Assembly (NCBI GenBank): GCA_049510055.1
Contig: JBEKZI010000017.1
Location: 1-32,226, forward strand
Length of the DNA stretch: 32,226 nucleotides
DNA from: Phycisphaerae bacterium
GTDB lineage: Bacteria; Planctomycetota; Phycisphaerae; SM23-33
Direction: 5' to 3'
Shown: piece after piece, positions 8,557 to 22,155 of the stretch
Layout of the letters: the number at the start of each line of letters is the position of its first letter
How positions within the stretch are numbered: the stretch's first letter is position 1
Notes under the pieces: generated by a model
What the model was told of the DNA's origin: nothing
Database searches by the model: none
What the model saw: only the letters and a program-made list of their open reading frames with translations
Translations under genes and position numbers: made by a program

Positions 8557-8568
8557 ACGGCGGCACCC

Positions 8569-9147: not shown

Positions 9148-9192
9148 TGCCCTGCGTAGTCTCGGCGCGCCGGGACGAAGCAGGGCATTTTT
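9148..9192 (+). terminator. Intrinsic terminator after ssrA (stem TGCCCTGC ... GCAGGGCA with a nested GC hairpin, then TTTTT)
   Basis: The hairpin plus a T5 tract is read from the sequence. It is preceded by two further perfect hairpins at 9077..9097 and 9101..9119. Confidence 0.65.
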
Positions 9193-9473: not shown

Positions 9474-11615
9474 ATGCGGGATTTCACCCGATCTTTGAAG
9501 TACCTCTGGCCTTACCGGCTGCGGATAGGTCTGGCCCTGCTCTGCACGCTGGGTATCAGCGTGCTGTGGGCCGGCGGACTGGCTGCGATCCTGCCGGCGG
9601 CCAAGGTGCTGATGTCTTCCGAGGGCCTGCACGGCTGGGTGTACAGGCTGGCGGCCTCGGACCGCCTGGGCGTGGACCTGGTCTCGTACTTGCCCCCCGA
9701 GCGCACCCAACTCCAGGGCCAGCAGCTCTCTTGGGTGGTGGCGGTGGGGCAGCCCCATCGTTCGCACCGCAACGCCGGCGCCCTGCTGCCGGGCCAGTGG
9801 GTGGTGGGTCTGGAGGATGGCGACGTCGCTCACCGGTTTCTGCGGGCGGATGCACTGCTGCGGCTGCTGGCGATGCAGCAGCCGGATCGGCGGATCACGC
9901 TTCGCGTATGCCGGTCGGACAGCGACCAGATTACGCTGTTGCCTGTGGTGACAAGCACGTTGACCCTGTCGACCCAAGCGATGCTTTGGCTGACCCGGCG
10001 CTTTCCCGAGCCGCGGACCTTCGCGGACCGCTTCCCGATCCTGTTGACGCTGCTGGTCTTCGGGATCGTCATCAGCATCCTGCGCGACGCCCTGCGGATT
10101 CTTCAGGAATTCCTGTCCAGCTCGGCGGTGTGGTACGCGGTGAATGACATCCGCAACGACAACTACAACGTGGCCCTGCGTCTGCCGGTGGGCTATTACG
10201 CCAAGCACGGGACCGCCGACGCGATCAGCCGTTTCACCTATGACGTGGGTATGCTGGCCCGGGGGCTCATCACGTTGCTGAGCAAGACGCTGGTGGAGCC
10301 CGCCAAGGCGTTGGCGACGCTGGCCCTGGCGCTCATCCTGTCCTGGAAGCTGACCCTGATCGCCCTGATCGCCGGTCCGCCGGCATTCCTGGCCATTCGC
10401 CGGCTGGGGCGGGCGATGCGACGCGTTTCGCGCCAGGCGATGCTGAGCATGTCCCAAATGCTGGAGGTGCTGGAGGAGACGCTCGGCGGCATCCGAGTGG
10501 TCAAGGCCTACACCATGGAGAATCGCGAGCGCCGGCGGTTCCTGCGGGTCAACCACCAGTTGCTCCGCCAGAACCTCAAGGTGTTCTTTGTGGAAGCGTT
10601 GACGGCCCCGATCGTGGAGGCGCTGGGGATCACCGCGGCCATGGCCGCCGTAGCCGTGGCGGGATACTGGGTGCTCCACAATCAGCACGACTTGGACGCC
10701 GAGAAGTTCCTGGCGTTGATGGCGTGCCTGGTGGCGATGTTCGACCCGATTCGCAAGCTCTCGTCCGTTTCGACCGTCTTTCACGCCTCGGACGCCGCCG
10801 CGGCGCGGATCAGGGAACTGCACGATGCGCCGCAGGAAGTCACGTCGCCCGGGGCGCCCAGTCTGCCGCGCCACCGGCGCAGCATCGAGTTCCGCCACGT
10901 CAGTTTCCGCTACGACGGGACGAGCGATGACGCCCTTCGCGACGTCAACCTGACTATCCGGGCCGGCGAGAACGTAGCCATCGTCGGGCCCAACGGTTCG
11001 GGCAAGACCACGCTGGTGTCGATGCTCCCGCGATTGTTGGACCCCACGACCGGCCAGGTGCTCATTGATGGGACGGACATCGCGCGGTGCTCTTTGCGGT
11101 CGTTGCGGCGGCAGATCGGGCTGGTGACGCAGGACGCCGTACTTTTCCACGCCACGATCGAGGAGAACATCTCCTACGGTCTGCACCGTTCGCAGCCCGA
11201 CAAGACCCGCCGCGCGGCCGAGCGGGCCTACGTGGACGAATTCATCCGGAAACTGCCCGAAGGATACGGCACCCTTGTGGGCCCCCATGGAGCGACGCTC
11301 TCGGGCGGGGAGAAGCAGCGGATCAGTATCGCTCGTGCCATCCTGCGCGACCCGGCTATCCTCATCTTTGACGAGGCGATGAGCCAGATCGACTCCGATT
11401 CGGAGCACCGGATTCAGCAAGCGATGCAGGAGTTCTCACGTGGCCGGACGACGCTGATCGTCGCGCACCGCTTTGCGACGGTGCTGGCCGCCGGCCGCAT
11501 TGTGGTGATGCAGGCGGGGCGGATTCAGGACAGCGGCACGCACGACGAGTTGATGAGCCGCTGTGAACTCTATCGACACCTCTACGCCACTCAGTTCATC
11601 GCCACGGGCGGCTAG
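9474..11615 (+). CDS. ABC exporter (fused transmembrane and ATPase domains, MsbA/McjD-like) with a ~150-aa extracytoplasmic insertion between TM1 and TM2
   Basis: It has Walker A GPNGSGKTT, ABC signature LSGGEKQR, Walker B ILIFDEAMS and an H-loop IVAHR. Six hydrophobic helices are present, plus a long hydrophilic loop (residues ~48-190) after TM1. It is convergent with the RiPP operon. The 738-aa minus-strand ORF over it is an antisense artefact. Confidence 0.9.
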   Translation: MRDFTRSLKYLWPYRLRIGLALLCTLGISVLWAGGLAAILPAAKVLMSSEGLHGWVYRLAASDRLGVDLVSYLPPERTQLQGQQLSWVVAVGQPHRSHRNAGALLPGQWVVGLEDGDVAHRFLRADALLRLLAMQQPDRRITLRVCRSDSDQITLLPVVTSTLTLSTQAMLWLTRRFPEPRTFADRFPILLTLLVFGIVISILRDALRILQEFLSSSAVWYAVNDIRNDNYNVALRLPVGYYAKHGTADAISRFTYDVGMLARGLITLLSKTLVEPAKALATLALALILSWKLTLIALIAGPPAFLAIRRLGRAMRRVSRQAMLSMSQMLEVLEETLGGIRVVKAYTMENRERRRFLRVNHQLLRQNLKVFFVEALTAPIVEALGITAAMAAVAVAGYWVLHNQHDLDAEKFLALMACLVAMFDPIRKLSSVSTVFHASDAAAARIRELHDAPQEVTSPGAPSLPRHRRSIEFRHVSFRYDGTSDDALRDVNLTIRAGENVAIVGPNGSGKTTLVSMLPRLLDPTTGQVLIDGTDIARCSLRSLRRQIGLVTQDAVLFHATIEENISYGLHRSQPDKTRRAAERAYVDEFIRKLPEGYGTLVGPHGATLSGGEKQRISIARAILRDPAILIFDEAMSQIDSDSEHRIQQAMQEFSRGRTTLIVAHRFATVLAAGRIVVMQAGRIQDSGTHDELMSRCELYRHLYATQFIATGG

Positions 11616-11715: not shown

Positions 11716-13179
11716 CTACCAGGGCACGCGCAGGGCCCGGAGGGGATGCCGCAGGACGAACCGGGCCAGCTTGCGGCGCATCGCCCGCCGGACGGCGAGA
11801 TCCCCTGACGGGGTATCGCGAAGGTAGGCCCACCGCATCTGCGGTTTGACGGTGTACTTCAGGAACCTCCGGTAGGCGCGGTTGAGCTCCTCATCCGACA
11901 TGGCCGTGAGGTTCACCGACGGGCCCGGCACTTCGAAGTAGGAAAGGCTTCCCCAGGTCAGAGTGCTCCGCTCTTGTGGACTGAGGTCCTGGTAGATCGG
12001 CGTGCCGGGCAGCGGGAAAAGCCGGCCGGCGGCGATGATCTCGGGTCTGGCCTGGCGCAGGAACTTGACGGTCTGGTTCAAATCCCATGCCGTTTCGCCG
12101 GGCAGACCTACCATGATGTCGGCGAAGATGCGCAGGCCCGCCTGGCGGGTCAGCAAGACGGCCCGGCGGTTGAGCTCGGCGGTGGCGTTCTTGCCCAGCC
12201 GGCGCAGCGCGTCGCTTGAACCGCTCTCAAAGCCGTACTCCACCTGGATGCACCCGGCCGATTTCATCTGATTCAGCAGCTCGCTGTCCGCTTGGTCCAC
12301 ACGCAGGCAGGCGTCCCATTGGAGCTGTTGGTGCAGGCCGGCGCGTCGGATCTGCTCGCAGAGCTCCAGCAGCCGCGAACGGTCGGCCCCCAGCGTGTCA
12401 TCCTCAAAGTGGATGGCCTCGACGCCGAACCGCCGGCGAGCAACCTGCATCTGCTCGATGACGTACGGAATGGAATGGAACCGCACGCCGACGCCGGAAA
12501 TCAAGTGCCCGGCGCAGAAGCGGCAGCGATTCGTGCAGCCGCGACTGGTGCGAATGTTGATCGCGGCGAGCTTGAGCCAGCGGATCAGGAATCGCCCTGG
12601 CGAGGTGTAGTAATCCATGCCGAATAGGTCGTAGGCGGGCGGTCCCAGGGTGTCCAGGTCCGTTACCGGCGGGCGGTCGGGCGTGCGGACGATGCCGCCG
12701 GCGGTGCGGAAGGCGATTCCCCGCACCGCTGGGCCGGGCCCGCCCTCGGCCAGCTCTCGCAGGGTGATTTCGCCCTCCCCGATGACGGCGACGTCGATCT
12801 GGGGACACTCCTGGAGCAGATGCTCGGGCAGGGCGGTGGGGTGCGGGCCGCCGGCCACTACCAGCGTCGCCGGGCCGCAGATCGTCTTGGCGTCCTGGGC
12901 CGCGAGTTGCCCTTCGGGCACACCCGGGGTTACCAGGGACAGTCCGACTATTTGCGGCTGGAACTCCTGCATCAATGTCTGCAGACTCGCCCGAGCGGCC
13001 GGCCAGTCAAAGCCGTTGCGCACCAACTGTTCCTCGGCGACGTACACCTTGACCTCATGGCCGCTGCGTCTCAGGACGGTCGCGATGCAGGCGATGCCAG
13101 TGGGCACCCATTGGGATCGAAAGATCCCTCGGGGCCAATCGGAGCGAGGAGGCGCGGGATAGACCAGCAGGATTTTCAT
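11716..13179 (-). CDS. B12-binding (class B) radical SAM enzyme
   Basis: An N-terminal cobalamin-binding Rossmann-like domain (MKILLVYPAPP ...) is followed by a radical SAM CxxxCxxC motif (CTNRCRFC). The start at 13179 forms an ATGA overlap with the upstream stop codon. The track ORF extends to 13281, which is unlikely to be the real start. Confidence 0.8.
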   Translation of the reverse strand: MKILLVYPAPPRSDWPRGIFRSQWVPTGIACIATVLRRSGHEVKVYVAEEQLVRNGFDWPAARASLQTLMQEFQPQIVGLSLVTPGVPEGQLAAQDAKTICGPATLVVAGGPHPTALPEHLLQECPQIDVAVIGEGEITLRELAEGGPGPAVRGIAFRTAGGIVRTPDRPPVTDLDTLGPPAYDLFGMDYYTSPGRFLIRWLKLAAINIRTSRGCTNRCRFCAGHLISGVGVRFHSIPYVIEQMQVARRRFGVEAIHFEDDTLGADRSRLLELCEQIRRAGLHQQLQWDACLRVDQADSELLNQMKSAGCIQVEYGFESGSSDALRRLGKNATAELNRRAVLLTRQAGLRIFADIMVGLPGETAWDLNQTVKFLRQARPEIIAAGRLFPLPGTPIYQDLSPQERSTLTWGSLSYFEVPGPSVNLTAMSDEELNRAYRRFLKYTVKPQMRWAYLRDTPSGDLAVRRAMRRKLARFVLRHPLRALRVPW

Positions 13180-14090
13180 CTGGATTTCAACGTACTCCGG
13201 AACCATTGCCGGCGGAATGAGTCGCGCCGAGCGTGTCCGCGCAGGACGACGCCGCGGCTCAGTGCCAGGCGGCTTAACCAAGGGGGCCGGGACAGGCCCA
13301 GACGCCGCGCTAACTCGCGGCAGCGGCTCTCGCCCAGCAGCTTATAGGCCAGCCACAGGCCCATCGCAACCGCCTTGGCCGCCCCGGTGCGGGCCAGGGC
13401 GTCCTTCAGCCAGGCCTCGTCCAGTCCACCGGCCGCTTGACGAACCGCCAGCGTGAGGTCCACCAGCGGTTGCAGGCGATCGAAACTGTGGCTGGCGGCG
13501 CCGTGGACCGCCGCGATCAGGATCGTCCCGGCCGGGCTGGGATGGGGCAGAGGATCGGCTGGAGTCAGTTGCAGGTCCTCGAAGCTCACCGACACGCCGC
13601 GCCGCAAGGTGGGAGAGTTCACCAGGTTGGTGTGCACCTCCACGTGGCCGGCTGATCGCTGGGGCCGATGCCAGACCTCCTCCCCGTAACCCAGGGGGTG
13701 CTTCATGGCGACGACGACCGGCCGGTATCCCAGGTGCTCCATCCGGGGGCGTGTCGCGGCCAGCGCCGACTGCGGGATCAGCAGGTCCACGTCGGTGAAA
13801 GACCTCAGCGACGGGTGAGGATAGAGGCGATCGGCGAAATCGTAACCCTTCAGGACGATCACCGGCAAAGCAGCTTGGCGGAAGTCCTGGGTGATCTCGT
13901 GAGCCTGCTGCCGCAGCGCCAGGCACAGGCCTGTTCGTTGAAGGATCATGCCTGGGACGGATTCCCACAACGCCTGCGCCTTATCATCCCCGTTCCACAA
14001 CACCTGGCCGCGATCCGCCAGGCGGTGGATGTTGGACGCGACCGCCGGCAACACGCCGTGACGATCCGCCAGATCCAGCAGGAGTTTCAT
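13176..14090 (-). CDS. Nucleotidyltransferase-family protein (PF14907-like uncharacterised nucleotidyltransferase)
   Basis: The motif LKGYDFADRLYPHPSLRSFTDVDLLIP matches the family signature (hG-x-aromatic ... R-x-x-DiDlli). The start is taken at ATG 14090 (MKLLLDL); the track ORF begins at an upstream TTG. Family assignment is from memory of the motif and is moderately certain. Confidence 0.65.
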   Translation of the reverse strand: MKLLLDLADRHGVLPAVASNIHRLADRGQVLWNGDDKAQALWESVPGMILQRTGLCLALRQQAHEITQDFRQAALPVIVLKGYDFADRLYPHPSLRSFTDVDLLIPQSALAATRPRMEHLGYRPVVVAMKHPLGYGEEVWHRPQRSAGHVEVHTNLVNSPTLRRGVSVSFEDLQLTPADPLPHPSPAGTILIAAVHGAASHSFDRLQPLVDLTLAVRQAAGGLDEAWLKDALARTGAAKAVAMGLWLAYKLLGESRCRELARRLGLSRPPWLSRLALSRGVVLRGHARRDSFRRQWFRSTLKSR

Positions 14091-14184
14091 CTGTTCCCCC
14101 CGCAAGGGAGCGACCGTGACCGGTATGTCGCGCCCGAGGGGATCGGCCAGTGCCGCCAGAATGGAATAGATCGGCTTCAGAGGT

Positions 14185-15168
14185 TCACCTCAGCAGCGAC
14201 GTGACCAGCGCCCCAAGCTCTTGGAGGCGAGGGCCAAGGCTCACCTCGTACGTGTCGCTCGTGCGAACCAGCTCAGCCATGGCCGCGAACGCCCGCCCGT
14301 CGCTGCCCTCGCGGTGCTTCTCGTACGCACGCACGTTCTCGTTGACCAATCGGACCAGAGCGCGGGTTTTGTCCAGGGGATGCACCTGATGCTGCCAGGG
14401 ATTGTGGGGATTGAGGAAAAGGATCAGCCCCGCCGAGGCGGCCACGCGGGTGGTCGGCGCCGCGGCCGGCCGCACATCCACCAGCACCTCATCGTTTCCG
14501 ATGTGGCCCCTGTGAGGCAGTCCTGCCAGCCACGGCAGCATCTGAATCGTTTGGCGGTGGACCTTGCAGGGGAAGCGAAGGCCCCAGAGCTGCGCATCGT
14601 GGTGCGGCGTGGCCGGGCTGAAGAACGTGATGTCGTCGGCCAGCAGGCTGAAGCCTTCGCCGGCCAGGCCCAGGGCCGTGGTGGTCTTTCCCCTCCCGCT
14701 GAGGCCGGAGATGAGCACGGCCCGTCGCTGCGGCGGACGATCCAGGAACAGGCTGGCGGCGTGGATGACGTAGTGCCCCTGGTCGTTGAGGATGTCGCAG
14801 AGCCACGGCAGGACGCACGCCTCCAGCAGGCACCTTTCGGCCCCGGGCCGGACGACGAACTCCGCCCGCCCCGCCGACAAGTCCACGTCGGCCGTGGCTT
14901 GGTCGATCACCTCGGTTTGGCGTCTTCGCGGATTGCAGCGGAAGATGATTCGACTTCCGTTAGGCAGCGAACCCCGCCAGAATTCCGGCAGGTCCGTCAG
15001 GGCAGGCAAGTGCTGCGCGTAGCGAATGCGGAGGCAAAACGCCCCGTCGCCCGGCTGGGCGGCATAGGCGCCAATGGCGGCCTGCACGGGGGCGAGCAGC
15101 GCCGGGTCGTCCGCCTCGACGGCGATGCGTTCGCCATGAACGTCGAAATGGGCTTGGACGGAACACAT
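14185..15168 (-). CDS. HPr kinase/phosphorylase C-terminal-domain-like P-loop kinase (HprK-related kinase)
   Basis: P-loop LISGLSGRGKTTTALGLAGEGFSLLADD is typical of the HprK-like kinases found in RiPP and lasso clusters. There is no HPr-binding N-terminal domain. Only one in-frame ATG is available. Confidence 0.75.
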   Translation of the reverse strand: MCSVQAHFDVHGERIAVEADDPALLAPVQAAIGAYAAQPGDGAFCLRIRYAQHLPALTDLPEFWRGSLPNGSRIIFRCNPRRRQTEVIDQATADVDLSAGRAEFVVRPGAERCLLEACVLPWLCDILNDQGHYVIHAASLFLDRPPQRRAVLISGLSGRGKTTTALGLAGEGFSLLADDITFFSPATPHHDAQLWGLRFPCKVHRQTIQMLPWLAGLPHRGHIGNDEVLVDVRPAAAPTTRVAASAGLILFLNPHNPWQHQVHPLDKTRALVRLVNENVRAYEKHREGSDGRAFAAMAELVRTSDTYEVSLGPRLQELGALVTSLLR

Positions 15169-15299: not shown

Positions 15300-15410
15300 C
15301 CCCCCCGTTACATCCGAAAGCTGCTCACGCTTCTGAAACGTTGGCTGAGAAGAGGGCTTCTGGGGCGTTTCTACGCTTTCCCTAACCCGATACCGTGGCG
15401 AAGCCGCACT
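15300..15410 (-). pseudogene. Decayed ninth copy of a type-1 precursor-peptide unit (start codon and Shine-Dalgarno lost)
   Basis: It aligns base-for-base with the functional units (for example CATCCGAAAGCTGCTCACGCTTCTGAAACGTTGGCTGAGAAGAGGGCTTCTGGGGCGTTTCTACGC against TATCCGAGAGCTTTTCACGCTTCTGGAGCGTAGGCGGAGAATAGGGTTTCTTCGTTTGCATGC). TCTACGC replaces TGCATGC at the start, and the SD CTCCTTC is mutated to TTTCCCT. Confidence 0.5.
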
Positions 15411-15416
15411 GTCTAT

Positions 15417-15518
15417 TTAAAAGGGCCCCCCTGAGCCGCGGACCGGGCTTTGAGTCGTATCCGAGAGCTTTTCGCGCTTCTGGAGCGTTGGCGGAGAATA
15501 GGGTTTCTTCGTTTTCAT
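15417..15518 (-). CDS. Precursor peptide A, type 1 (33 aa): MKTKKPYSPPTLQKREKLSDTTQ | SPVRGSGGPF
   Basis: AAGGAGAT Shine-Dalgarno 8 nt before the ATG. The leader carries Y-17, P-14, L-12 and T-2. It is not in the ORF track (under 60 aa). It is one of 8 tandem paralogues. Confidence 0.7.
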   Translation of the reverse strand: MKTKKPYSPPTLQKREKLSDTTQSPVRGSGGPF

Positions 15519-15562
15519 GCGATCTCCTTCAACCGGCACTGTGGCGACGCCGCACTGCCCGC

Positions 15563-15667
15563 TTAACGCCTAGCGCCCGAGGTGATGGAGGGACCGCCTT
15601 GAGTCATATCTGAGAGCTTGTCCCGCTTTTGGAGCGTCGGCGGAGAATAGGGCTTCTTCGTTTTCAT
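15563..15667 (-). CDS. Precursor peptide B, type 1 (34 aa): MKTKKPYSPPTLQKRDKLSDMTQ | GGPSITSGARR
   Basis: Hand-translated from the minus strand. AAAGAGCT Shine-Dalgarno-like sequence. Same leader as peptide A; the core differs. Confidence 0.7.
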   Translation of the reverse strand: MKTKKPYSPPTLQKRDKLSDMTQGGPSITSGARR

Positions 15668-15712
15668 GCGAGCTCTTTCAGCCGGCATCGTGGCGACGCC
15701 GCAGAAGCCTAC

Positions 15713-15826
15713 TTAACCCGTACCATCCCTAGCGCCTGAGGTGATGGGGGGACTACCTTGAGTCATATCTGAGAGCTTGTCCCGCTTCTGGAGCGTAGGC
15801 GGAGAATAGGGCTTCTTCGTTTTCAT
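15713..15826 (-). CDS. Precursor peptide C, type 1 (37 aa): MKTKKPYSPPTLQKRDKLSDMTQ | GSPPITSGARDGTG
   Basis: Hand-translated from the minus strand. Leader identical to peptide B. Core carries the ITSG motif. Confidence 0.7.
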   Translation of the reverse strand: MKTKKPYSPPTLQKRDKLSDMTQGSPPITSGARDGTG

Positions 15827-15871
15827 GCGAGCTCTTTCAGCCGGCACCGTGGCGACGCCGCAGAAGCCTGC

Positions 15872-15985
15872 TTAAGCATTACCATCCCTAGCGCCTGAGG
15901 TGATGGGGGGGTCGCCTTGAGTCATATCTGAAAGCTTGTCCCGCTTCTGGAGCGTAGGTGGAGAATAGGGTTTCTTCGTTTTCAT
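15872..15985 (-). CDS. Precursor peptide D, type 1 (37 aa): MKTKKPYSPPTLQKRDKLSDMTQ | GDPPITSGARDGNA
   Basis: Hand-translated from the minus strand. AAAGGAGAT Shine-Dalgarno. Leader identical to peptides B and C. Confidence 0.7.
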   Translation of the reverse strand: MKTKKPYSPPTLQKRDKLSDMTQGDPPITSGARDGNA

Positions 15986-16030
15986 GCGATCTCCTTTAGC
16001 CAGCACCGTGGCGACGCCGCAGAAGCCTAC

Positions 16031-16141
16031 TTAATCATTAGCATCAACGCCCGAGGTGATGGAGGCCCCGCCTTGAGTCGTATCCGAGAGCTTTTCACGC
16101 TTCTGGAGCGTAGGCGGAGAATAGGGTTTCTTCGTTTGCAT
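16031..16141 (-). CDS. Precursor peptide E, type 1 (36 aa): MQTKKPYSPPTLQKREKLSDTTQ | GGASITSGVDAND
   Basis: It is the internal Met of track ORF 16031..16240. AAGGAGAT Shine-Dalgarno before this ATG. Confidence 0.75.
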   Translation of the reverse strand: MQTKKPYSPPTLQKREKLSDTTQGGASITSGVDAND

Positions 16142-16181
16142 GCAATCTCCTTCAACCGGCACCGTGGCGACGCCGCGTTGG

Positions 16182-16292
16182 TCACGGGGGTGTAGGTGTA
16201 ACCCCGCTGACGCCGTCGGGCACAGCGGTGATGTCGGCAAGCCGCTCCAGCTTCTTCAACACGGGTTTGACATAGGGCTTCTTGGCGTTCAT
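16182..16292 (-). CDS. Precursor peptide F, type 2 (36 aa): MNAKKPYVKPVLKKLERLADITA | VPDGVSGVTPTPP
   Basis: It is the internal Met of track ORF 16182..16364. AAGGAAT Shine-Dalgarno. The type-2 leader carries the same Y-17, P-14, L-12 and T-2 positions. Confidence 0.75.
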   Translation of the reverse strand: MNAKKPYVKPVLKKLERLADITAVPDGVSGVTPTPP

Positions 16293-16305
16293 GCGTATTC
16301 CTTGG

Positions 16306-16416
16306 TCACTCGGGTGTAACCCCGCTGACGACGCCGGGCGTACCCTGAGCGGTGATGTCGGCAAGCCGCTCCAGCTTCTTCAACACGGGTTTGGCATAGG
16401 ACTTCTTGGTGTCCAT
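16306..16416 (-). CDS. Precursor peptide G, type 2 (36 aa): MDTKKSYAKPVLKKLERLADITA | QGTPGVVSGVTPE
   Basis: It is the internal Met of track ORF 16306..16488. AAAGGAAT Shine-Dalgarno. Confidence 0.75.
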   Translation of the reverse strand: MDTKKSYAKPVLKKLERLADITAQGTPGVVSGVTPE

Positions 16417-16429
16417 GCGTATTCCTTTT

Positions 16430-16540
16430 TCAACCGGGTGTAGCCCCACTGACGACGCCGGGCGTGCCCTGAGCGGTGATGTCGGCAAGCCGCTCCAGCT
16501 TCTTCAACACGGGTTTGGCATAAGGCTTCTTGGCGTTCAT
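16430..16540 (-). CDS. Precursor peptide H, type 2 (36 aa): MNAKKPYAKPVLKKLERLADITA | QGTPGVVSGATPG
   Basis: It is the internal Met of track ORF 16430..16663. AAAGGAAT Shine-Dalgarno. It is the first gene of the array after B2. Confidence 0.75.
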   Translation of the reverse strand: MNAKKPYAKPVLKKLERLADITAQGTPGVVSGATPG

Positions 16541-16646
16541 GCGTATTCCTTTCGCGTGCGGTCTGCCAAGCACGGAAATACGACCCGTATGAATGAGCGT
16601 CCACCACGTGTGACTTCGGACGAAGCTGGGCGGAAACTTAACACAG

Positions 16647-17117
16647 TTATGGGGCTTGTGCAAGGTCCTCTTTGACGGAATTTTCTTGCGCCGCGGCCCC
16701 GTGGACCAGCACCACCGCCGCCGGGCCGTCCGGGGGCGACGTTAAGGCTATATCATTGAGCGTCACCCAGCCGTGGGCTTGGGTTCGCGGGGCCTCCGGG
16801 TTTTGCGGATACACGCCGATTCGCAAAACGGCCGGGTAGCCTGCCAGGCGCAGGAAGTGAAACAGGGTTAGGGACTGTCGCAGGCAGGGGCGACGGCGCA
16901 TGTTGCGAGGGTTTTTCAGACGTTGCGCTACCCGCTCCACGATATCCTGCCAGGCAATGCCCCGGTAGGGGACCACGGAAGTCGGGGGCGTCAGCACGCG
17001 TAACACTCGCTTGAGCGACAAGACCTTGTCCAGCAGGGGAATGAACGTCGCCACCAGCCAGATGTGCGCCCGTAACAACGGCAATCGCAGCGACATGGGG
17101 CCGCTAGTGTTGCTCAA
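16647..17117 (-). CDS. Lasso-B2-like leader peptidase (transglutaminase-like Cys protease, PF13471-type)
   Basis: The protein has McjB-type catalytic residues: Cys in the RRRPCLRQSLTLFHFL context and His/Asp in QAHGWVTLNDIALTSPPDG. It is ~156 aa, the size of a stand-alone B2 domain. It overlaps the B1 stop by 14 nt; an alternative start lies at 17096. Confidence 0.75.
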   Translation of the reverse strand: MSNTSGPMSLRLPLLRAHIWLVATFIPLLDKVLSLKRVLRVLTPPTSVVPYRGIAWQDIVERVAQRLKNPRNMRRRPCLRQSLTLFHFLRLAGYPAVLRIGVYPQNPEAPRTQAHGWVTLNDIALTSPPDGPAAVVLVHGAAAQENSVKEDLAQAP

Positions 17118-17397
17118 CCAGCAATTTCTCCTGAAGAAGCTTGCCCGCCAAGGCGGTCATGTCCCGGGTAAGCTCCTCTCGCGAGACTTCGTACTGTTCC
17201 CAAAGGGTTTCAATGGCCTCCCCGAGCGTCCGCCGGCCGTCCAGTGCCTGCAGGAAGGCGGCAGTGGTCTCATTGCACGTGTACAGGTACCCGGAGTTGA
17301 GCGAGAACACGACCGTGTCCGATCCGGGGCCCAACGACTGGTAGGTCACGTCGTCGGCCAGCTTCAATCGCAGGTTCAGTAGCGGTATGGCAGTCAT
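17104..17397 (-). CDS. PqqD-family RiPP recognition element (lasso B1-like)
   Basis: Residues 26-122 of the track ORF (MTAIPLLNLRLKLADDVTYQSLGPGSDTVVFSLNSGYLYTCNETTAAFLQALDGRRTLGEAIETLW...) show the PqqD fold pattern. The start at 17397 is chosen to exclude the non-conserved 25-aa extension. Confidence 0.75.
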   Translation of the reverse strand: MTAIPLLNLRLKLADDVTYQSLGPGSDTVVFSLNSGYLYTCNETTAAFLQALDGRRTLGEAIETLWEQYEVSREELTRDMTALAGKLLQEKLLVEQH

Positions 17398-17678: not shown

Positions 17679-20165
17679 ATGAGACCACGGTTGATAGTGA
17701 TGGCAGTGGCCGCGACCTTGGCTGCAGTGGCATGCCTGGCGCAGGCCGAAAAAGCCTCCGTCCTTCTGGACAAGGGCATCTACACCGAAGAAACGCTTGG
17801 GAACCCCTCCGCGGCCATCGGCATCTACAGCCAGGTGGTCGCCAGCGGCGAGGCCGACCGCCAGTATGCCGCCCAGGCCCAGTATCGCATCGCGATGTGC
17901 CACCTGAAGCTCAAGCACGACAACGAGGCCCGCGAGGCGCTGAAGACATTCCTGAGCAAGTACAGCGATCAGGAAGAGCTGGCGTCCAAGGCCCGGACCG
18001 CGCTGGAGGACCTGCTGGAGTTCGACCCGGCGGCGCTCATGCCTCCCACCATCGTGGCCTACGTCGAGGTGGGCAGCCCCGGCAAACAGCTCGAGACGGT
18101 CCTGAAGATGCTGAAGGGCACGCCTTTGGCCAATCCGCTGGAGATGATGAATCCAACATCCGCGCCGTCGGATGCCTCCGCGCCGTCGGCGACCTCCGCG
18201 CCGGCGACTTCCTACGGCCGCCCCGCCAGTCCCGCCCAGGTCTTCTCGGCGTTGCTGAATCCCAGCATGCTGAAAGAGTTCAAGAAGCTTCGCAGCATGG
18301 CCGTGGGCGTCTCCGAGATCAAAGGCCGCGGCCAGAGCCCCTTCGTGGCCGTCTTGAGGCCCGGCGACAGCGACGCGCTCCGCGGGATCCTCACGGCCGG
18401 CGTGCTTGCCTCCGGCCAGCCCACCGCCCCGATCGAAGGCATGCAGACGGTGCAACTCAGCCCGGAGATGGCCTGCGCGTTCGACGACAGCGTGTTCCTC
18501 TTTGCCTCCCCGGTGTCTCAACTTGCCTGGAGCGTCCATCAGTATAAGTCCGGCGCGCCCGAACCCAGCCTGCTGACCGCCAACGAGTCGTTTTCGCGGC
18601 TGGCCCCTGCCGCCGATCGCAAAAATGACGCGCTGACGGTCTGGGCGAACCCTTCTCGGCTGCTCCAAAACAAAGCGTACATCCCGCCGGAAGCCCTGGA
18701 GAAAATGATGATCGCAAACGCCTTCGCCGACTTCGAAAACATGGAGGGCGCCGTCGTCCGGTTGCGCCTCAAGGAGACCAGCCTCAGCCTGGAGGCCACC
18801 GTCGCCTACCGCGAGGGGCGCAAAGCGTTTGGGTATGACCTGATCCGCACGTGTCCACTGGACCAGGCCGGTTTTGCCGCCGTTCCTCCGCAGGCGGTGG
18901 GCATCGTGGCCCTGGCCCTGTTGGAGCACACCGCCTCAACAGAACCTCCCGTCGCCGACGTTCGGCAGGAGACCGTCCGCCGTATCACCGGGCTGGACCT
19001 GGGGAGAGAGCTGTTCAGTAATATCGAGCAACTCTCGCTGTTCTTGATGCCGTCCAGCGAGGCGGCGACGGCCCATCCGTTGAGCCGTCTGTCTGTGGTG
19101 GCCCCGTCGCTGGGCCTGGCCATTACGTCGCGCAACCCCGCGCAGACCCTGGCCGTGCTGGACAGGATGTTGACGGTCCAAGGCCTGATGTCGGCAGGTT
19201 CCACCAGCGCCCCGGCGGCGGACGAGCAAGGCATGCGGACGTACGTAATCGGCGCCAGCAACCAGAAGCCGATATCCCTGTGCGTGGCGCAGAAAGGCAA
19301 GACCACGGTGCTGGCGTTCCTTCCGGAAGTGGTCCAGACGTCTCTGACGGCCCTGGGCACGGGCAAGAACGTCACGACCGACGGGCCGATGGCACAGGCC
19401 CTCGGCCAGGTCAGCGACAAGAACAAGGTGGTGCTGGTCAACGCCGGCGGACTGTTCCGCTTGTATGACGCCAGCGTCGCGCCGCCCGCGGCAAAACGCG
19501 ACGCGGCGTCGCAGCCGGCGACGGACAGCCAGGCCGTGGCCGATCAGATCGCCTCGGCCCTGGACGACACGGTAATCCGGCTGGAGACCTCCGAACTGCC
19601 GAACACCATGACGGTCCGCGCCGAGCTATTGGGCATTCCGCCGCTGGCGAAGCTGTTTCCTCTGGTCATGCAGTATCAGCAGCAGCGCATGGCCTTCCAG
19701 AAGGCCAGGAAATCGCAAGCACAACCTTCCCAAGAGCGCAACAAGCTCATGAAGCAGGTCGGAACAGATTTCCTCAAGGCCCTCCAGGCAAATGACGAGG
19801 CGGCGATTGGGAAATTGATCGTCCCGCACTCCTCCGTGGAGGCCAAGATCAAGGACCTACTTGCAGTCCCGGGTCTGGCGGCGTTTCGGTTCCAGGATAG
19901 CGGCAGGGCGCTAAATCTCGGTTGGGTCCTGGTGTACGGGCCCGACAAGACGGATTCCTCGGCGCCCGCGATACTGATCCATCTGCTCAAGCAGGCCAAG
20001 TCCCCGCCGCCGTGGCTCGTCTCGGACGTGGAAATCCTTCCGATCCCGGATGCCATACACCAATTGAAGCAGTACGATTCCAGGGCCACCGGCGGCCCGA
20101 TGCCGGCGCCTGCGCCGGCGCCCGCGCCTGCGGGTGATGATGCGGCGCCCGCCGAGAACAACTGA
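17679..20165 (+). CDS. Secreted 828-aa hypothetical protein (Sec signal peptide, TPR-like N-terminal region, Ala/Pro/Ser-rich linker, C-terminal PAPAPAPA)
   Basis: Signal peptide MRPRLIVMAVAATLAAVACLAQA. The amino-acid composition is coherent. AAAGGGA Shine-Dalgarno. The overlapping 511-aa minus-strand ORF is an artefact. Confidence 0.7.
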   Translation: MRPRLIVMAVAATLAAVACLAQAEKASVLLDKGIYTEETLGNPSAAIGIYSQVVASGEADRQYAAQAQYRIAMCHLKLKHDNEAREALKTFLSKYSDQEELASKARTALEDLLEFDPAALMPPTIVAYVEVGSPGKQLETVLKMLKGTPLANPLEMMNPTSAPSDASAPSATSAPATSYGRPASPAQVFSALLNPSMLKEFKKLRSMAVGVSEIKGRGQSPFVAVLRPGDSDALRGILTAGVLASGQPTAPIEGMQTVQLSPEMACAFDDSVFLFASPVSQLAWSVHQYKSGAPEPSLLTANESFSRLAPAADRKNDALTVWANPSRLLQNKAYIPPEALEKMMIANAFADFENMEGAVVRLRLKETSLSLEATVAYREGRKAFGYDLIRTCPLDQAGFAAVPPQAVGIVALALLEHTASTEPPVADVRQETVRRITGLDLGRELFSNIEQLSLFLMPSSEAATAHPLSRLSVVAPSLGLAITSRNPAQTLAVLDRMLTVQGLMSAGSTSAPAADEQGMRTYVIGASNQKPISLCVAQKGKTTVLAFLPEVVQTSLTALGTGKNVTTDGPMAQALGQVSDKNKVVLVNAGGLFRLYDASVAPPAAKRDAASQPATDSQAVADQIASALDDTVIRLETSELPNTMTVRAELLGIPPLAKLFPLVMQYQQQRMAFQKARKSQAQPSQERNKLMKQVGTDFLKALQANDEAAIGKLIVPHSSVEAKIKDLLAVPGLAAFRFQDSGRALNLGWVLVYGPDKTDSSAPAILIHLLKQAKSPPPWLVSDVEILPIPDAIHQLKQYDSRATGGPMPAPAPAPAPAGDDAAPAENN

Positions 20166-20175
20166 TGATGAACCG

Positions 20176-22155
20176 ATGAACGCGGTTTCCATTGGCAGGG
20201 GTGAAGGCACAGGCCGCAGCCACGTGTTGCGGCCTGTGCTGGTCGTTTTGCTGGCGACGGTCCTGGTGCCGTCGGCCTGCACGTTGTGGTTCATGTATGC
20301 CGCCGTGCAGGAAGTGTCGCTGGCTTCCCGCCAGCGCCTGGCGGATGCCTACGACGGCGCGGTCCGAGGGGCCGCGGCCAGGCTTCAGGACTATTGCTCA
20401 GCCCGGATCGCCTCGCTGTCGGCCGGCGGCGATCCGTCGCCGACGAAGGCCTTCGACCGGCTGGTCTTGGCCCGCGCCGCCGATGCCGTGATCGTCCGCG
20501 ACGGCGCCGGCCGTCTGCTCTACCCCTCCCCCCAGGTTCCCTCCGGGCAGGCCAGAGCGATGTCGCAAGCGTGGCAGTCGGCGGAAGACTTGGAGCACGC
20601 GCAGGCGGACGGCCTGGCTGCCGCAGCCGCCTATGCCCGGATCGCCGACACCGCCCCCAATGCCGACCTGCGGGCTCAGGCGATGCTGGCCCAGGCGCGA
20701 TGCCTGGCCAAGGCGGGGCAGAAGGATCAGGCTGTCGCCATCCTGCGGGCCCTGGCCGAGAATCCCGACTTGCAAGCCGCCAGGGGCGCCCAAGGGCGGC
20801 TGGTGACGCCCAATGCCGTCCTGTTCGCCCTGCAACTGATCAACCGGCCGGAGGATGAGCAGTTCCGCAAGCTGGCGGCGGGCCTGGTGAAACGGCTCAA
20901 CGATTACGAGGAACCGGCGATGCCGCCCAGCCAGCGGCGGTTCCTCATGGCCGCGCTGTGGGAGATGGACAACTCCCTTCCGCCTTTCGCAACGCTTGCG
21001 GCCGAGAACCTGGCGGCTGAGTATCTCAGTCGCCCGCAGCCGGCGCCACAGCCGTCGCAACTAACGCCGACGTCCCTGCCCGGCGTTTGGCAGGCGGCCG
21101 GGCCCGGCGGCACCGTGACGGGTCTGTTCCGGCAGGACCTTCTGCTGGCGAACATGCACTTGGCCATCCAGGCGGACGCCCCCCGGGGAGTGAGCCTGTT
21201 CATAAGGCCGCCGACCGGCGAACCGACGACGCGGCAGCGGGCCTTCGTGACTTTGCCGGCCGGGGCCGCCTTGCCCGGCTGGACGGTGGAGGTCCTGCTG
21301 ACCGGCGACGATCCCTTCGCCGTGGCGGCCCGGCAGCGCAAGGCCGCCATTCTGTGGACGGCCGCCGTCGGCATCATGATGATCCTGGCGCTGGCGGCGG
21401 TGTTGAGCTACTACCTCAGCCGCCAGGTGCGGCTGACGCGGCTGAAAAACGATCTGATCGCCACCGTGTCGCACGAGCTGAAGACCCCCCTGGCCTCCAT
21501 GCGCCTGCTGATCGACACGCTTCTGGAACGGCGCTATGGCGCCCAGGAGCAGGCCGAGGAATATTTAGCGATGATCGCCAAGGAAAATGAGCGCCTCAGC
21601 CGGCTCATCGATAACTTTTTGAATTTCTCGCGGATGGAGCGCCGCAAGACGGCGTTCGTGTTCGCGGCGCTGCCGGCCGATGAGCTGGTCGCCGCGGTCA
21701 TGCGGGCGGCGCCGGATCGGGTGACCCAGCCGCCGTGCCGTTTTGAATTGGACGTGGCGAAAGACTGCCCCGCCGTCCGCGGCGACCGCGACGCGCTGGT
21801 GACCGTCGTGCTGAACCTGCTGGACAATGCCTACAAATACTCCCACGACCCCCGGCGCATTGCGCTTCGCGTCTTCGGACAGGAAGGCCGCCTGCACCTG
21901 GAGGTCCGCGACAATGGCATCGGCCTGTCGCGCCGTTCAGTCCGTCGGGTGTTCCGACGCTTCTACCAGGTGGACCGCAGCCTTTCGCGCTCGGTGGGTG
22001 GTTGCGGTCTGGGGCTGAGCATTGTTAAATTTATCGTCGATGCCCACGGCGGCACCGTGGACGTCTCCAGCCGGCTCGGCCAAGGGAGCACGTTCACCGT
22101 CACGCTGCCGGGCCTGGAAGACGGCGCGGGACACGCAGGCCATGATGAAAGCTGA
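20176..22155 (+). CDS. Sensor histidine kinase (TM helix, large periplasmic domain, second TM helix, HisKA, HATPase)
   Basis: H-box SHELKTPLASMRLLIDTLLE. N box LLDNAYKYS. G boxes DNGIGL and GLGLSIVKFIVDAHGG. The start is taken at ATG 20176; the track ORF begins at GTG 20134. Confidence 0.85.
   Translation: MNAVSIGRGEGTGRSHVLRPVLVVLLATVLVPSACTLWFMYAAVQEVSLASRQRLADAYDGAVRGAAARLQDYCSARIASLSAGGDPSPTKAFDRLVLARAADAVIVRDGAGRLLYPSPQVPSGQARAMSQAWQSAEDLEHAQADGLAAAAAYARIADTAPNADLRAQAMLAQARCLAKAGQKDQAVAILRALAENPDLQAARGAQGRLVTPNAVLFALQLINRPEDEQFRKLAAGLVKRLNDYEEPAMPPSQRRFLMAALWEMDNSLPPFATLAAENLAAEYLSRPQPAPQPSQLTPTSLPGVWQAAGPGGTVTGLFRQDLLLANMHLAIQADAPRGVSLFIRPPTGEPTTRQRAFVTLPAGAALPGWTVEVLLTGDDPFAVAARQRKAAILWTAAVGIMMILALAAVLSYYLSRQVRLTRLKNDLIATVSHELKTPLASMRLLIDTLLERRYGAQEQAEEYLAMIAKENERLSRLIDNFLNFSRMERRKTAFVFAALPADELVAAVMRAAPDRVTQPPCRFELDVAKDCPAVRGDRDALVTVVLNLLDNAYKYSHDPRRIALRVFGQEGRLHLEVRDNGIGLSRRSVRRVFRRFYQVDRSLSRSVGGCGLGLSIVKFIVDAHGGTVDVSSRLGQGSTFTVTLPGLEDGAGHAGHDES

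What the first reader, a model, noticed from the sequence alone, without database searches (positions are those of the whole stretch)
15417..16540. Eight tandem precursor-peptide genes; five are absent from the ORF track. They have perfectly conserved lasso-type leaders and hypervariable cores
Hand translation of the minus strand shows eight small genes of 33-37 codons. Each has its own Shine-Dalgarno (mostly AAGGAGAT / AAGGAAT) and ATG, repeated with periods of ~158 nt (five type-1 units) and 124 nt (three type-2 units).

- Type-1 leader: MKTKKPYSPPTLQKR(E/D)KLSD(T/M)TQ.
- Type-2 leader: M(N/D)(A/T)KK(P/S)Y(A/V)KPVLKKLERLADITA.

Counting back from the conserved Thr at -2, both types place Tyr at -17, Pro at -14 and Leu at -12. 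This is the exact spacing of the residues that B1 recognition elements contact in lasso leaders. The Gly usually found at about -8 is replaced by Glu in all copies.

The predicted cores are SPVRGSGGPF, GGPSITSGARR, GSPPITSGARDGTG, GDPPITSGARDGNA, GGASITSGVDAND, VPDGVSGVTPTPP, QGTPGVVSGVTPE and QGTPGVVSGATPG. They are rich in Gly, Ser, Thr and Pro, contain no Cys, and share an (I/V)(T/V)SG motif. They diverge far faster than the leaders, which is the signature of a diversifying RiPP precursor family.
Basis: seen in the sequence. Interest (0 to 1): 0.88.

Follow-up and report, generated by a model that had tools for sequence, protein, structure and literature searches.

The report
Cyclase-less lasso-like peptide gene array
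Eight real, tandem small genes in a Phycisphaerae (Planctomycetota) genome encode precursor peptides with lasso-type leaders, but their conserved gene cluster has no lasso cyclase, so it most likely makes short, chemically decorated linear peptides of a kind not yet characterised.

Summary
Eight small minus-strand genes (15417..16540) form two tandem sets, three with a 124-nt period and five with about 150-159 nt. Each has an SD and an ATG. A ninth copy has decayed.

They are coding. Type-1 leader dN/dS is 0.10 at pS 0.25, against 0.93 for the core. The peptide family recurs in Planctomycetota, Verrucomicrobiota and a delta-proteobacterial MAG.

The genes lie inside one operon-like cluster:
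- PqqD RRE (B1)
- transglutaminase-like peptidase (B2)
- A1-A8
- HprK-like kinase
- NTP_transf_5 nucleotidyltransferase
- B12-radical-SAM enzyme
- a convergent MsbA-like ABC exporter

This gene order recurs in 12 other loci found with three independent anchors. Neither these nor the three other related loci examined have a lasso cyclase.

The cores are 8-21 aa (median 11). Only 18/106 have Asp/Glu at positions 7-9, and none of the eight here does. They are not uniformly hypervariable: the family consensus is G1-x-x-P4-h-h-(T/S)7-G8.

Best reading: a lasso-derived, cyclase-less RiPP pathway that gives short linear peptides. These are probably phosphorylated at Ser/Thr6-7, further decorated, possibly methylated, then cleaved by B1/B2 and exported.

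The closest known system is the Bacillota "linear polyphosphorylated peptides" (2026). That system uses a different peptidase and has no rSAM. I rate this a new variant of a known kind.

The parts
16430..16540 (-). Precursor A1 (type 2): MNAKKPYAKPVLKKLERLADITA|QGTPGVVSGATPG
   Evidence: ORF, SD and ATG. Precursor-HMM iE 1e-15. Called as a hypothetical protein in JGI/ENA.
16306..16416 (-). Precursor A2 (type 2): MDTKKSYAKPVLKKLERLADITA|QGTPGVVSGVTPE
16182..16292 (-). Precursor A3 (type 2): MNAKKPYVKPVLKKLERLADITA|VPDGVSGVTPTPP
16031..16141 (-). Precursor A4 (type 1): MQTKKPYSPPTLQKREKLSDTTQ|GGASITSGVDAND
   Evidence: This ATG-start form is not on record as a called gene in the public collections searched.
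15872..15985 (-). Precursor A5 (type 1): MKTKKPYSPPTLQKRDKLSDMTQ|GDPPITSGARDGNA
15713..15826 (-). Precursor A6 (type 1): MKTKKPYSPPTLQKRDKLSDMTQ|GSPPITSGARDGTG
15563..15667 (-). Precursor A7 (type 1): MKTKKPYSPPTLQKRDKLSDMTQ|GGPSITSGARR
15417..15518 (-). Precursor A8 (type 1, aberrant core): MKTKKPYSPPTLQKREKLSDTTQ|SPVRGSGGPF
   Evidence: It is the only window core without the hydrophobic-Ser/Thr motif at position 6-7.
15306..15374 (-). Decayed ninth leader copy (VETPQKPSSQPTFQKREQLSDVT). It has no start codon, Tyr and Pro-17/-14 are lost, and there is no nearby stop.
   Evidence: Translation. Weak precursor-HMM hit, iE 4.5e-5.
17104..17397 (-). B1: discrete PqqD-type RiPP recognition element, 97 aa from the ATG at 17397. 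The longest ORF starts at a TTG at 17472.
   Evidence: Pfam PqqD 48 bits against a cut-off of 23.4. Best PDB match is TfuB1, 6jx3. Start placed by alignment to the called L001 gene.
16647..17117 (-). B2: transglutaminase-like Cys leader peptidase, 156 aa from a TTG. An ATG at 17096 gives 149 aa.
   Evidence: Pfam Transglut_core3 41.9 bits against a cut-off of 26. NCBIfam lasso_biosyn_B2 46 bits against a cut-off of 33. Cys in R-x-CLR and His in aH-x-WV are invariant in 11 orthologues.
14185..15168 (-). HprK-like P-loop peptide kinase, 327 aa (NCBI MGA2265522.1, annotated as hypothetical).
   Evidence: NCBIfam HprK_rel_A E 8.8e-10, below its cut-off. Invariant H136, K161, D178, D179 and GxSGxGKTT. 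AF2 model pLDDT 90.5. Foldseek top hits are PEP carboxykinases, E about 1e-8.
13176..14105 (-). NTP_transf_5 nucleotidyltransferase. The start is uncertain and may lie up to about 14162.
   Evidence: Pfam PF14907 115.5 bits. Invariant D-x-D in FTDVDLLIP. AF2 model pLDDT 91. Best PDB folds are LnuA and ANT(2'')-Ia, 4xje/5cfs.
11716..13281 (-). B12-binding radical SAM enzyme. The start is uncertain; a GTG at 13107 gives 463 aa.
   Evidence: Pfam B12-binding plus Radical_SAM. CxxxCxxC at C269/C273/C276 is invariant. The nearest NCBIfam models (HpnJ, BchE, ApyD, PhpK) all score far below their cut-offs.
9474..11615 (+). MsbA-like ABC exporter, convergent with the operon.
   Evidence: Pfam ABC_membrane plus ABC_tran. 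NCBIfam MsbA_lipidA 444 bits, below its cut-off. An orthologue sits at the same position in L001 and L002.
16001..16019 (-). Example of the conserved 8-bp hairpin (CGGCGUCG-CCA-CGGUGCCG) found in each type-1 spacer just 5' of the SD. It also occurs at about 16157-16175, 15842-15860, 15683-15701 and 15534-15552.
   Evidence: RNAalifold on five spacers gives 8 pairs and no compensatory changes. Its function is unknown.

Best explanation
The eight ORFs are functional precursor peptides (A1-A8) of a lasso-derived but cyclase-less RiPP gene cluster. The cluster is B1 (PqqD RRE) - B2 (Cys peptidase) - A1..A8 - HprK-like kinase - NTP_transf_5 - B12-radical-SAM, with a convergent MsbA-like exporter.

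Proposed pathway:
1. B1 binds the YxxPxL leader motif and presents each precursor to the tailoring enzymes.
2. The kinase phosphorylates the conserved Ser/Thr at core position 6-7. In the window this is ITSG or V(V)SG.
3. The nucleotidyltransferase adds a further group to that phosphate or hydroxyl.
4. The B12-rSAM modifies a neighbouring residue, possibly by methylating an aliphatic or Pro residue.
5. B2 cuts after the T/A(-2)-x(-1) junction.
6. The ABC transporter exports a set of short (10-14 aa) linear, decorated peptides.

The tandem array supplies a small library of variants around one fixed modification site.

Shown:
- The ORFs are under protein-level selection.
- The leader has the lasso register.
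- The gene set and order are conserved across phyla.
- All enzymes keep their catalytic motifs.
- No cyclase is present in any locus examined.
- The cores lack the lasso acceptor.

Inferred by homology to PadeK, PsmK, LppK and PsmN:
- phosphorylation
- the follow-on decoration
- the order of steps

Inferred from family membership only:
- the rSAM's chemistry

Unknown:
- the biological activity
For: Coding:
- Type-1 leader dN/dS is 0.10 with pS 0.25.
- Nucleotide identity is 92% in the leader, 84% in the spacer and 58% in the core.
- Rfam gives no match.

Lasso-type recognition and cleavage machinery:
- PqqD and Transglut_core3 both pass their Pfam cut-offs, and NCBIfam's lasso_biosyn_B2 model is passed.
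- The best PDB match for B1 is TfuB1.
- The B2 Cys and His are invariant.
- The [Y/W]xxPx[L/V/I/F/A] motif and Thr-2 are the established lasso recognition elements (PMC13381572; PMC10368454 abstract).

Conserved cluster:
- B1-B2-[A]n-K-N-rSAM occurs in L001-L004, L008 and L010 (kinase-anchored). L005 and L011 show it as far as their contigs reach. L004's rSAM lacks the B12 domain and no precursor was found there.
- It occurs in L015 and L016 (precursor-anchored).
- It occurs in L017 and L018 (NTase-anchored).
- These loci have unrelated flanks and come from Planctomycetota, Verrucomicrobiota and a delta-proteobacterial MAG.

No cyclase:
- No PF00733 appears in any listed neighbourhood.
- It is also absent from the unassigned large ORFs of the window and of L006-L010.

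Cores (106 unique):
- Ser/Thr at position 6 or 7 in 95.
- Asp/Glu at 7-9 in 18, and in none of the eight window cores.
- Median length 11 aa.
- C-terminal Ser in 2.

Enzymes:
- The kinase has invariant H136, K161, D178 and D179. This is the His-Lys-Asp-Asp motif of lasso-tailoring kinases (PMC9266682).
- The kinase has a PEPCK/HprK-type fold.
- The NTase has an invariant DxD. Its model matches ANT(2'')-Ia 4xje/5cfs. These are the structures reported as resembling PsmN, whose DxD mutant is inactive (PMC6993621).

Precedent: cyclase-less linear polyphosphorylated peptides made by RRE + HprK-like kinase + NTP transferase + MsbA-like pump (PMC13381572).
Against: - No expression or mass-spectrometry data exist for this family, so every chemical step is inferred.
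- LppK did not accept Thr in place of Ser. Thr is the commoner residue at position 7 in this family.
- The kinase matches HprK-family models only below their curated cut-offs.
- LppN showed no activity in its heterologous host. What PsmN-type enzymes transfer directly is unsettled.
- B12-rSAM enzymes also catalyse reactions other than methylation. The top model hits here, HpnJ and BchE, are not methylases.
- L006 has the array plus K-N-rSAM but no B1/B2 within 10 kb.
- A cyclase elsewhere in the genome cannot be excluded for a MAG.
- A8 lacks the motif and may be non-functional.
Confidence: 0.7

Rival explanations
1. The peptides are genuine lasso peptides. Their Asn-synthetase-like cyclase is encoded elsewhere in the genome and acts in trans.
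For: - The leaders, B1 and B2 are lasso-type.
- 18 of 106 family cores have Asp/Glu at positions 7-9. In the 47 hand-curated precursors the 11 such cores are mostly G1...T7-D/E8, which is the geometry of an 8-membered lasso ring.
- The source is an incomplete MAG.
Against: - None of the eight window cores, and 88 of 106 family cores, has an acidic residue at 7-9. That residue is required for the isopeptide bond (PMC9266682).
- Median core length is 11 aa, which leaves 2-4 residues of tail. By my own knowledge that is too short to thread.
- No cyclase lies within +-10 kb in any of 15 loci from several phyla, although every other gene is tightly syntenic.
Confidence: 0.06
2. The pathway does form a ring, but by new chemistry that replaces the lasso cyclase. 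The kinase and/or nucleotidyltransferase would activate Ser/Thr7, or Asp/Glu8 in the TD/TE variants. The freed N-terminal amine or the C-terminus would then attack. Possible routes are phosphate elimination to Dha/Dhb followed by amine addition, or an acyl-/O-adenylate intermediate.
For: - The conserved Ser/Thr sits at core position 6-7, with Gly at position 1 in 55 of 106 cores. This is the register where lasso peptides place their ring-closing acid.
- Some paralogues in the same arrays carry T7-D/E8.
- The NTase fold matches O-adenylyltransferases that act on hydroxyl groups, LnuA and ANT(2'').
- The lasso cyclase itself works through an AMP ester.
Against: - There is no precedent for this chemistry.
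- The homologous kinase/NTase pairs that have been characterised only decorate Ser and leave the backbone linear or unchanged.
- Position 1 is Gln, Ala or another residue in about half of the cores.
Confidence: 0.12
3. The repeats are non-coding, for example a repeat-associated RNA or regulatory array. Leader conservation would then reflect constraint at the nucleotide level.
For: The type-1 spacers carry a conserved small hairpin. Five of the ORFs are missing from public gene calls.
Against: - Leader differences are mainly synonymous: 38 synonymous against 16 non-synonymous, dN/dS 0.10.
- The peptide family is conserved at protein level across phyla and with different codons.
- All eight copies keep a start codon, an SD, the reading frame and a stop.
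- Rfam gives no match.
Confidence: 0.01
4. The cluster is a decaying remnant of a former lasso cluster that lost its cyclase. The small ORFs would be non-functional relics.
For: - A decayed ninth copy exists, and A8 lacks the core motif.
- L001 has a frameshifted copy.
- L016 has an IS element inserted in the rSAM gene.
Against: - The leaders are under strong purifying selection.
- Catalytic motifs are intact in all five enzymes across orthologues.
- The same gene order persists across Planctomycetota, Verrucomicrobiota and a delta-proteobacterial MAG.
- About 260 kinase clusters (50% identity) match at E<=1e-30.
Confidence: 0.03

Closest known systems
Linear polyphosphorylated peptides (LPP; Popov et al., Nat Commun 2026, PMC13381572)
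   Same: - It is a cyclase-less offshoot of lasso biosynthesis.
[quoted passage not shown]
- It has one to three precursor genes, and the product is linear.
   Different: [quoted passage not shown] This cluster uses the lasso B2 Cys peptidase.
- LPP has no B12-rSAM.
- The LPP leader consensus is YxxPxVLxHQxIxFETxxS, and the phospho-acceptor is Ser3.
- LPP precursors are 35-200 aa. The characterised LPP core is 45 aa, against 8-21 aa here.
- LPP is reported as restricted to Bacillota. This family is found in Planctomycetota, Verrucomicrobiota and a delta-proteobacterial MAG.
- Arrays here reach 8-11 copies.
Paeninodin/pseudomycoidin-type phosphorylated lasso peptides (PadeK, ThcoK, SyanK, PsmK, PsmN)
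   Same: - Split B1/B2 and an ABC exporter.
- An HprK-like kinase with the His-Lys-Asp-Asp motif that acts on the leader-bearing precursor.
- A PsmN-like NTase with a DxD site.
   Different: - Those clusters contain the macrolactam synthetase C and give lasso or branched-cyclic products.
- Their acceptor is a strictly conserved C-terminal Ser. Only 2 of 106 cores here end in Ser.
- They have no rSAM.
Canonical lasso peptides (A/B or B1+B2/C)
   Same: The leader register is the same (Tyr-17, Pro-14, Leu-12, Thr-2). The B1 RRE and the B2 peptidase are shared.
   Different: There is no cyclase. Most cores have no Asp/Glu7-9 acceptor, and the cores are too short to thread.
B12-dependent radical-SAM C-methylated RiPPs (for example polytheonamide PoyB/PoyC; recalled from my own knowledge, not tested here)
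   Same: A class-B (cobalamin-binding) rSAM is encoded next to precursor genes whose cores are rich in Val, Ile, Thr and Pro.
   Different: Sequence similarity does not reach any curated family cut-off. Whether this enzyme methylates has not been shown.

Membership tests
Lasso peptides | Leader with the [Y/W]xxPx[L/V/I/F/A] RRE-binding motif and Thr at -2 | tested here: met
   All 8 window precursors have Tyr-17, Pro-14, Leu-12 and Thr-2. Across the family, -2 is Thr or Ala in about 95% of precursors.
Lasso peptides | RRE (B1) plus transglutaminase-like Cys peptidase (B2) | tested here: met
   Both Pfam cut-offs and the NCBIfam lasso_biosyn_B2 cut-off are passed. TfuB1 is the best PDB match for B1. 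The Cys and His of B2 are invariant.
Lasso peptides | ATP-dependent macrolactam synthetase (Asn-synthetase-like, PF00733) in the cluster | tested here: not met
   It is absent from the whole 32-kb window. It is also absent from 15 related loci within +-10 kb or to the contig end. The rest of the genome could not be searched.
Lasso peptides | Core with Asp/Glu at position 7-9 to close the ring onto the residue-1 amine, plus a tail long enough to thread | tested here: not met
   0 of 8 window cores and 18 of 106 family cores have Asp/Glu at 7-9. Median core length is 11 aa. The requirement is stated in PMC9266682.
Linear polyphosphorylated peptides (LPP) | Discrete RRE + HprK-like kinase + NTP transferase + MsbA-like exporter, without a cyclase | tested here: met
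   All four are present in the window. The exporter is also present in L001 and L002 but not in every locus.
Linear polyphosphorylated peptides (LPP) | SpI-like (SipW-type) signal peptidase as the leader peptidase | tested here: not met
   No signal-peptidase domain appears in the window or in any related locus. A lasso B2 peptidase takes that place.
Linear polyphosphorylated peptides (LPP) | Leader consensus YxxPxVLxHQxIxFETxxS, with the phospho-acceptor Ser near the core N-terminus | tested here: not met
   Only the YxxPx[L/V] part is shared. The family leader continues xKRE(K/Q)L(A/S)xV(T/A)(E/Q), and the conserved Ser/Thr is at core position 6-7.
Linear polyphosphorylated peptides (LPP) | (Poly)phosphorylated linear product | not testable with these tools
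   This needs expression and mass spectrometry.
Paeninodin-type phosphorylated lasso peptides | Kinase with the catalytic His-Lys-Asp-Asp motif | tested here: met
   H136, K161, D178 and D179 are invariant in 28 family kinases. The motif is given in PMC9266682.
Paeninodin-type phosphorylated lasso peptides | Conserved C-terminal Ser as the phospho-acceptor | tested here: not met
   The window cores end in G, E, P, D, A, G, R and F. Only 2 of 106 family cores end in Ser.
HprK-related kinase A system (NCBIfam TIGR04352) | Score above the curated cut-off (200 bits) | tested here: not met
   38.1 bits, E 8.8e-10. It is a distant relative only.

The most novel reading that the evidence does not exclude
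This PVC-superphylum family is a distinct, uncharacterised RiPP class. In it the lasso leader-recognition and peptidase module has been re-coupled to a kinase, nucleotidyltransferase and B12-rSAM trio. The invariant Ser/Thr at core position 6-7 lies in the register of the lasso ring-closing acid. It would be activated by phosphorylation or nucleotidylylation to form a new, cyclase-independent ring or an unprecedented phospho-linked, methylated side-chain adduct. The 8-11-copy arrays would act as natural combinatorial libraries around that site.
Probability: 0.15. Interest if true: 0.85.

Novelty: new variant of a known kind. Interest (0 to 1): 0.62.

Why it matters
This family would show that the lasso leader/B1/B2 module is a portable processing cassette. 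It has been reused, outside the Bacillota, to make non-lasso products.

It would define a conserved and apparently unstudied RiPP cluster type in Planctomycetota and Verrucomicrobiota. As far as I know, few natural products from these phyla have been characterised.

RRE-Finder found that about half of its discrete lasso-type RRE hits lack a peptidase plus cyclase, and called those possible false positives (PMC7470986). Part of that set may be explained by clusters like this one.

The fixed Ser/Thr6-7 site, the very short cores and the multi-copy arrays make a compact, testable system. It could be used to study three things:
- how HprK-like kinases and PsmN-type transferases choose their sites;
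- what a B12-rSAM does on such peptides;
- how precursor arrays diversify.

Genome-mining rules that require PF00733 will miss these clusters.

Tried and rejected
I compensated with neighbourhood look-ups anchored on the precursor and on the NTase.
- The exact look-up of the window NTase failed, probably because of a different start codon.
I re-ran it with a 44-aa first row.
- A PDB sequence search with B2 gave only spurious beta-lactamase hits with E>0.1. PDB sequence searches with the kinase and the NTase gave nothing significant, so I used fold searches instead.
- The promoter/terminator scan found no more sites than in shuffled sequence.
- Rfam gave only two chance-level hits, both outside the array.
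- NCBIfam has no model that recognises the precursors.
- The literature search for PF14907 was uninformative. The 2016 JBC paeninodin paper is not held.
- I considered whether the divergent TPR, histidine-kinase and response-regulator genes belong to the cluster. I rejected this because they are not conserved in the other loci.
- Type-2 leader dN/dS is uninterpretable, because there are only 10 differences.
Full report
**Observation**

Reading the minus strand of 15300..16700 and listing ORFs confirms eight small genes at the stated coordinates. Each has an ATG 6-8 nt downstream of an SD-like element and ends in a stop codon.

Tandem Repeats Finder reports two arrays, with period 159 (score 1010) and period 124 (score 574).

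Three details need correcting:
- The leaders are 92-95% identical at nucleotide level within a type, not perfectly conserved.
- Position -8 is Asp in A5-A7.
- A decayed ninth leader copy with no start codon lies at about 15306..15374.

Only the three type-2 peptides are on record as called genes in public collections.

**Coding or not**

Among the five type-1 paralogues the leader shows 38 synonymous and 16 non-synonymous differences. This gives pS 0.25, pN 0.03 and dN/dS 0.10. The first ten core codons give dN/dS 0.93.

Nucleotide identity is 92% in the leader, 84% in the non-coding spacer and 58% in the core. The cores therefore diverge faster than the spacers.

Rfam finds nothing in the array. 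The non-coding-repeat alternative is rejected.

**Context**

The window is a 32,226-bp contig of a Phycisphaerae (Planctomycetota) MAG. I called genes by GC3 and scanned them with Pfam and NCBIfam.

| Coordinates | Strand | Gene |
|---|---|---|
| 17104..17397 | - | PqqD RRE (B1) |
| 16647..17117 | - | Transglut_core3 peptidase (B2); passes NCBIfam lasso_biosyn_B2 |
| 15417..16540 | - | A1-A8 |
| 14185..15168 | - | HprK-like kinase |
| 13176..14105 | - | NTP_transf_5 nucleotidyltransferase |
| 11716..13281 | - | B12-binding radical SAM enzyme |
| 9474..11615 | + | MsbA-like ABC transporter, convergent |

Housekeeping genes flank the cluster: argJ, argC, rpsI, rplM, csrA, an IF-2B-family gene (probably mtnA) and bipA. 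The window contains no Asn-synthetase-like lasso cyclase.

**Is the architecture conserved?**

I used three independent anchors.

1. *Kinase.* Kinase homologues number only 52 by word-indexed search. Their neighbourhoods L001-L004 show PqqD - Transglut_core3 - small ORFs - kinase - NTP_transf_5 - radical SAM in unrelated flanks. The rSAM is B12-binding except in L004, where no precursor was found either. L005 shows the same order until its contig ends after NTP_transf_5. L006 has the array plus kinase - NTP_transf_5 - B12-rSAM but no B1/B2. A phmmer map adds L008 (Verrucomicrobiota MAG), L010 (delta-proteobacterial MAG) and L011 (Planctomycetota MAG).
2. *Precursor.* A precursor profile retrieved 77 peptides. 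Two precursor-anchored loci, L015 and L016, have the same order.
3. *NTase.* Two NTase-anchored loci, L017 and L018 (Sedimentisphaerales), also have it.

No locus lists PF00733. The unassigned large ORFs of L006-L010 are not cyclases either.

A full HMMER scan with the kinase profile finds 260 clusters (50% identity) at E<=1e-30. Named relatives of the NTase come from Phycisphaerae, Sedimentisphaerales and Verrucomicrobiota.

**The precursor family**

A precursor HMM finds arrays in most loci.

| Locus | Precursor-like ORFs |
|---|---|
| window | 8, plus 1 relic |
| L001 | 4 hits (one copy split by a frameshift) |
| L002 | 3 |
| L005 | 11 |
| L006 | 8 |
| L010 | 3 |
| L011 | 10 |
| L015 | 6 |
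| L017 | 3 |

Many copies use GTG or TTG starts.

I placed the cleavage site by the leader register and then analysed 106 unique cores:
- The consensus is G1-x-x-P4-(V/I)5-(V/I/T)6-(T/S)7-G8.
- Ser/Thr is at position 6 or 7 in 95 of 106.
- Asp/Glu is at 7-9 in 18 of 106, and in none of the eight window cores.
- Median length is 11 aa, with a range of 8-21.
- Only 2 cores end in Ser.
- No core contains Cys.

The cores are variable only around it.

Both leader types of the window also occur in L001, so the paralogy is old.

**Enzymes look active**

- *B2.* It keeps an invariant Cys (R-x-CLR) and His (aH-x-WV) in 11 orthologues. The third triad residue is not clearly conserved.
- *B1.* Its best PDB match is TfuB1.
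- *Kinase.* The family has invariant H136, K161, D178 and D179 plus a Walker A motif. This is the His-Lys-Asp-Asp motif shown to be essential in lasso-tailoring kinases (PMC9266682). Its AlphaFold model has pLDDT 90.5 and matches PEP carboxykinases. By my own knowledge that is the fold superfamily of HPr kinase.
- *NTase.* It has an invariant DxD. Its model has pLDDT 91 and best matches LnuA and ANT(2'')-Ia, 4xje and 5cfs. These are the structures reported to resemble PsmN, whose D134A/D136A mutant is inactive (PMC6993621).
- *rSAM.* It keeps CxxxCxxC. It reaches no curated family cut-off, and its nearest models are HpnJ, BchE, ApyD and PhpK-type.

**Mechanism**

By homology, the kinase should phosphorylate a core Ser/Thr on the leader-bearing precursor, as PadeK, ThcoK, SyanK, PsmK and LppK do. 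The only universally conserved hydroxyl is Ser/Thr6-7.

PsmN adds hexose(s) to the phosphate. The NTase here may do likewise, or it may nucleotidylylate.

The class-B rSAM is possibly a methyltransferase acting on the adjacent aliphatic or Pro residues. This is inference from family membership only.

B1/B2 then remove the leader at the T/A(-2)-x(-1) junction, and the ABC pump exports the product.

With no cyclase and no acceptor acid, the products should be linear.

One unexplained regularity remains. The conserved Ser/Thr occupies the register where lasso peptides carry their ring-closing acid. Some paralogues have G1...T7-D/E8. This may be a relic of lasso ancestry or a hint of different ring chemistry.

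**Comparison with known systems**

The closest described system is the LPP family (PMC13381572). [quoted passage not shown] LPPs differ in several ways:
- They use an SpI-type signal peptidase, not B2.
- They lack an rSAM.
- They have a different extended leader motif.
- The characterised LPP core is much longer (45 aa).
- They are described as restricted to Bacillota.

Canonical lasso membership fails on the cyclase and on the acceptor. Paeninodin-type membership fails on the cyclase and on the C-terminal Ser.

RRE-Finder had noted many lasso-type RREs without a cyclase, about 300 of them next to rSAM enzymes, and treated them as possible false positives (PMC7470986).

My literature searches found no description of this B1-B2-K-N-B12-rSAM architecture. 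The library is incomplete, however.

**Verdict**

The finding is best described as a multi-copy precursor array of a conserved, cyclase-less, lasso-derived RiPP cluster typical of PVC bacteria. It is a new variant of a recently recognised kind. All of the chemistry remains to be shown experimentally.

Noticed in passing
window 15306..15374 (-): A decayed ninth leader copy (VETPQKPSSQPTFQKREQLSDVT) follows A8. It has no start codon, has lost Tyr-17 and Pro-14, and has no nearby stop. This suggests birth-and-death turnover in the array.
   Followed up: partly
window about 16157-16175, 16001-16019, 15842-15860, 15683-15701, 15534-15552 (-): A conserved 8-bp GC-rich hairpin (CGGCGUCG-CCA-CGGUGCCG) sits in every type-1 spacer just upstream of the SD. 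It shows no compensatory changes. It could be an mRNA-stability or processing element, or simply part of the duplicated unit.
   Followed up: partly
L015 9382..9849 (+): One family precursor (leader plus core GSGPAITPVLI) is fused to a C-terminal Peptidase_S74 domain, the intramolecular chaperone of endosialidases (Pfam E 7e-12). The junction LI|SDRNAKK resembles that domain's self-cleavage site, by my recollection. It could therefore release an 11-aa core by autoproteolysis.
   Followed up: partly
L006 8100..10020 (+): Eight precursors, mostly with VTDG/ITDG cores, sit next to kinase-NTase-rSAM. No B1/B2 lies within 10 kb. A 914-aa ORF with no Pfam match lies directly upstream.
   Followed up: partly
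L016 12255..15104: An IS element (DDE_Tnp_1 transposase) is inserted in the B12-rSAM gene. It separates the B12-binding part from the Radical_SAM part.
   Followed up: no
L001 9500..9754 (+): One precursor copy is split by a frameshift (MKTKKLYSSPTFQKRE* / LSEVIQGAVPVVTGSTPPPQ). Both leader types of the window are also present in this locus.
   Followed up: no
L005 8024..9972 and L011 2619..4413 (+): These arrays hold about 10-11 precursors, and most begin with GTG or TTG, not ATG. Gene callers report only a minority of them.
   Followed up: partly
L009 9095..12442 (Mesorhizobium sp. ANAO-SY3R2 chromosome): This is a distant relative of the cluster. It has B1-B2-kinase-NTase followed by a precursor-like ORF (MKRAYIKPVLVKSLLKLQAVTAGTISGPGEPTLPE). 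It has no rSAM, and no cyclase was found among the large neighbouring ORFs tested.
   Followed up: partly
window 17679..22843 (+): An 828-aa TPR protein, a TPR-containing histidine kinase and an OmpR-type response regulator are transcribed divergently from B1. They are not conserved next to the cluster in the other loci, apart from a small TPR ORF upstream of B1 in L005.
   Followed up: partly
window 8557..9473 and 27840..28572: These stretches have no assigned gene. The ORFs 8310..8828(-) and 27924..28292(+) have no Pfam match.
   Followed up: no
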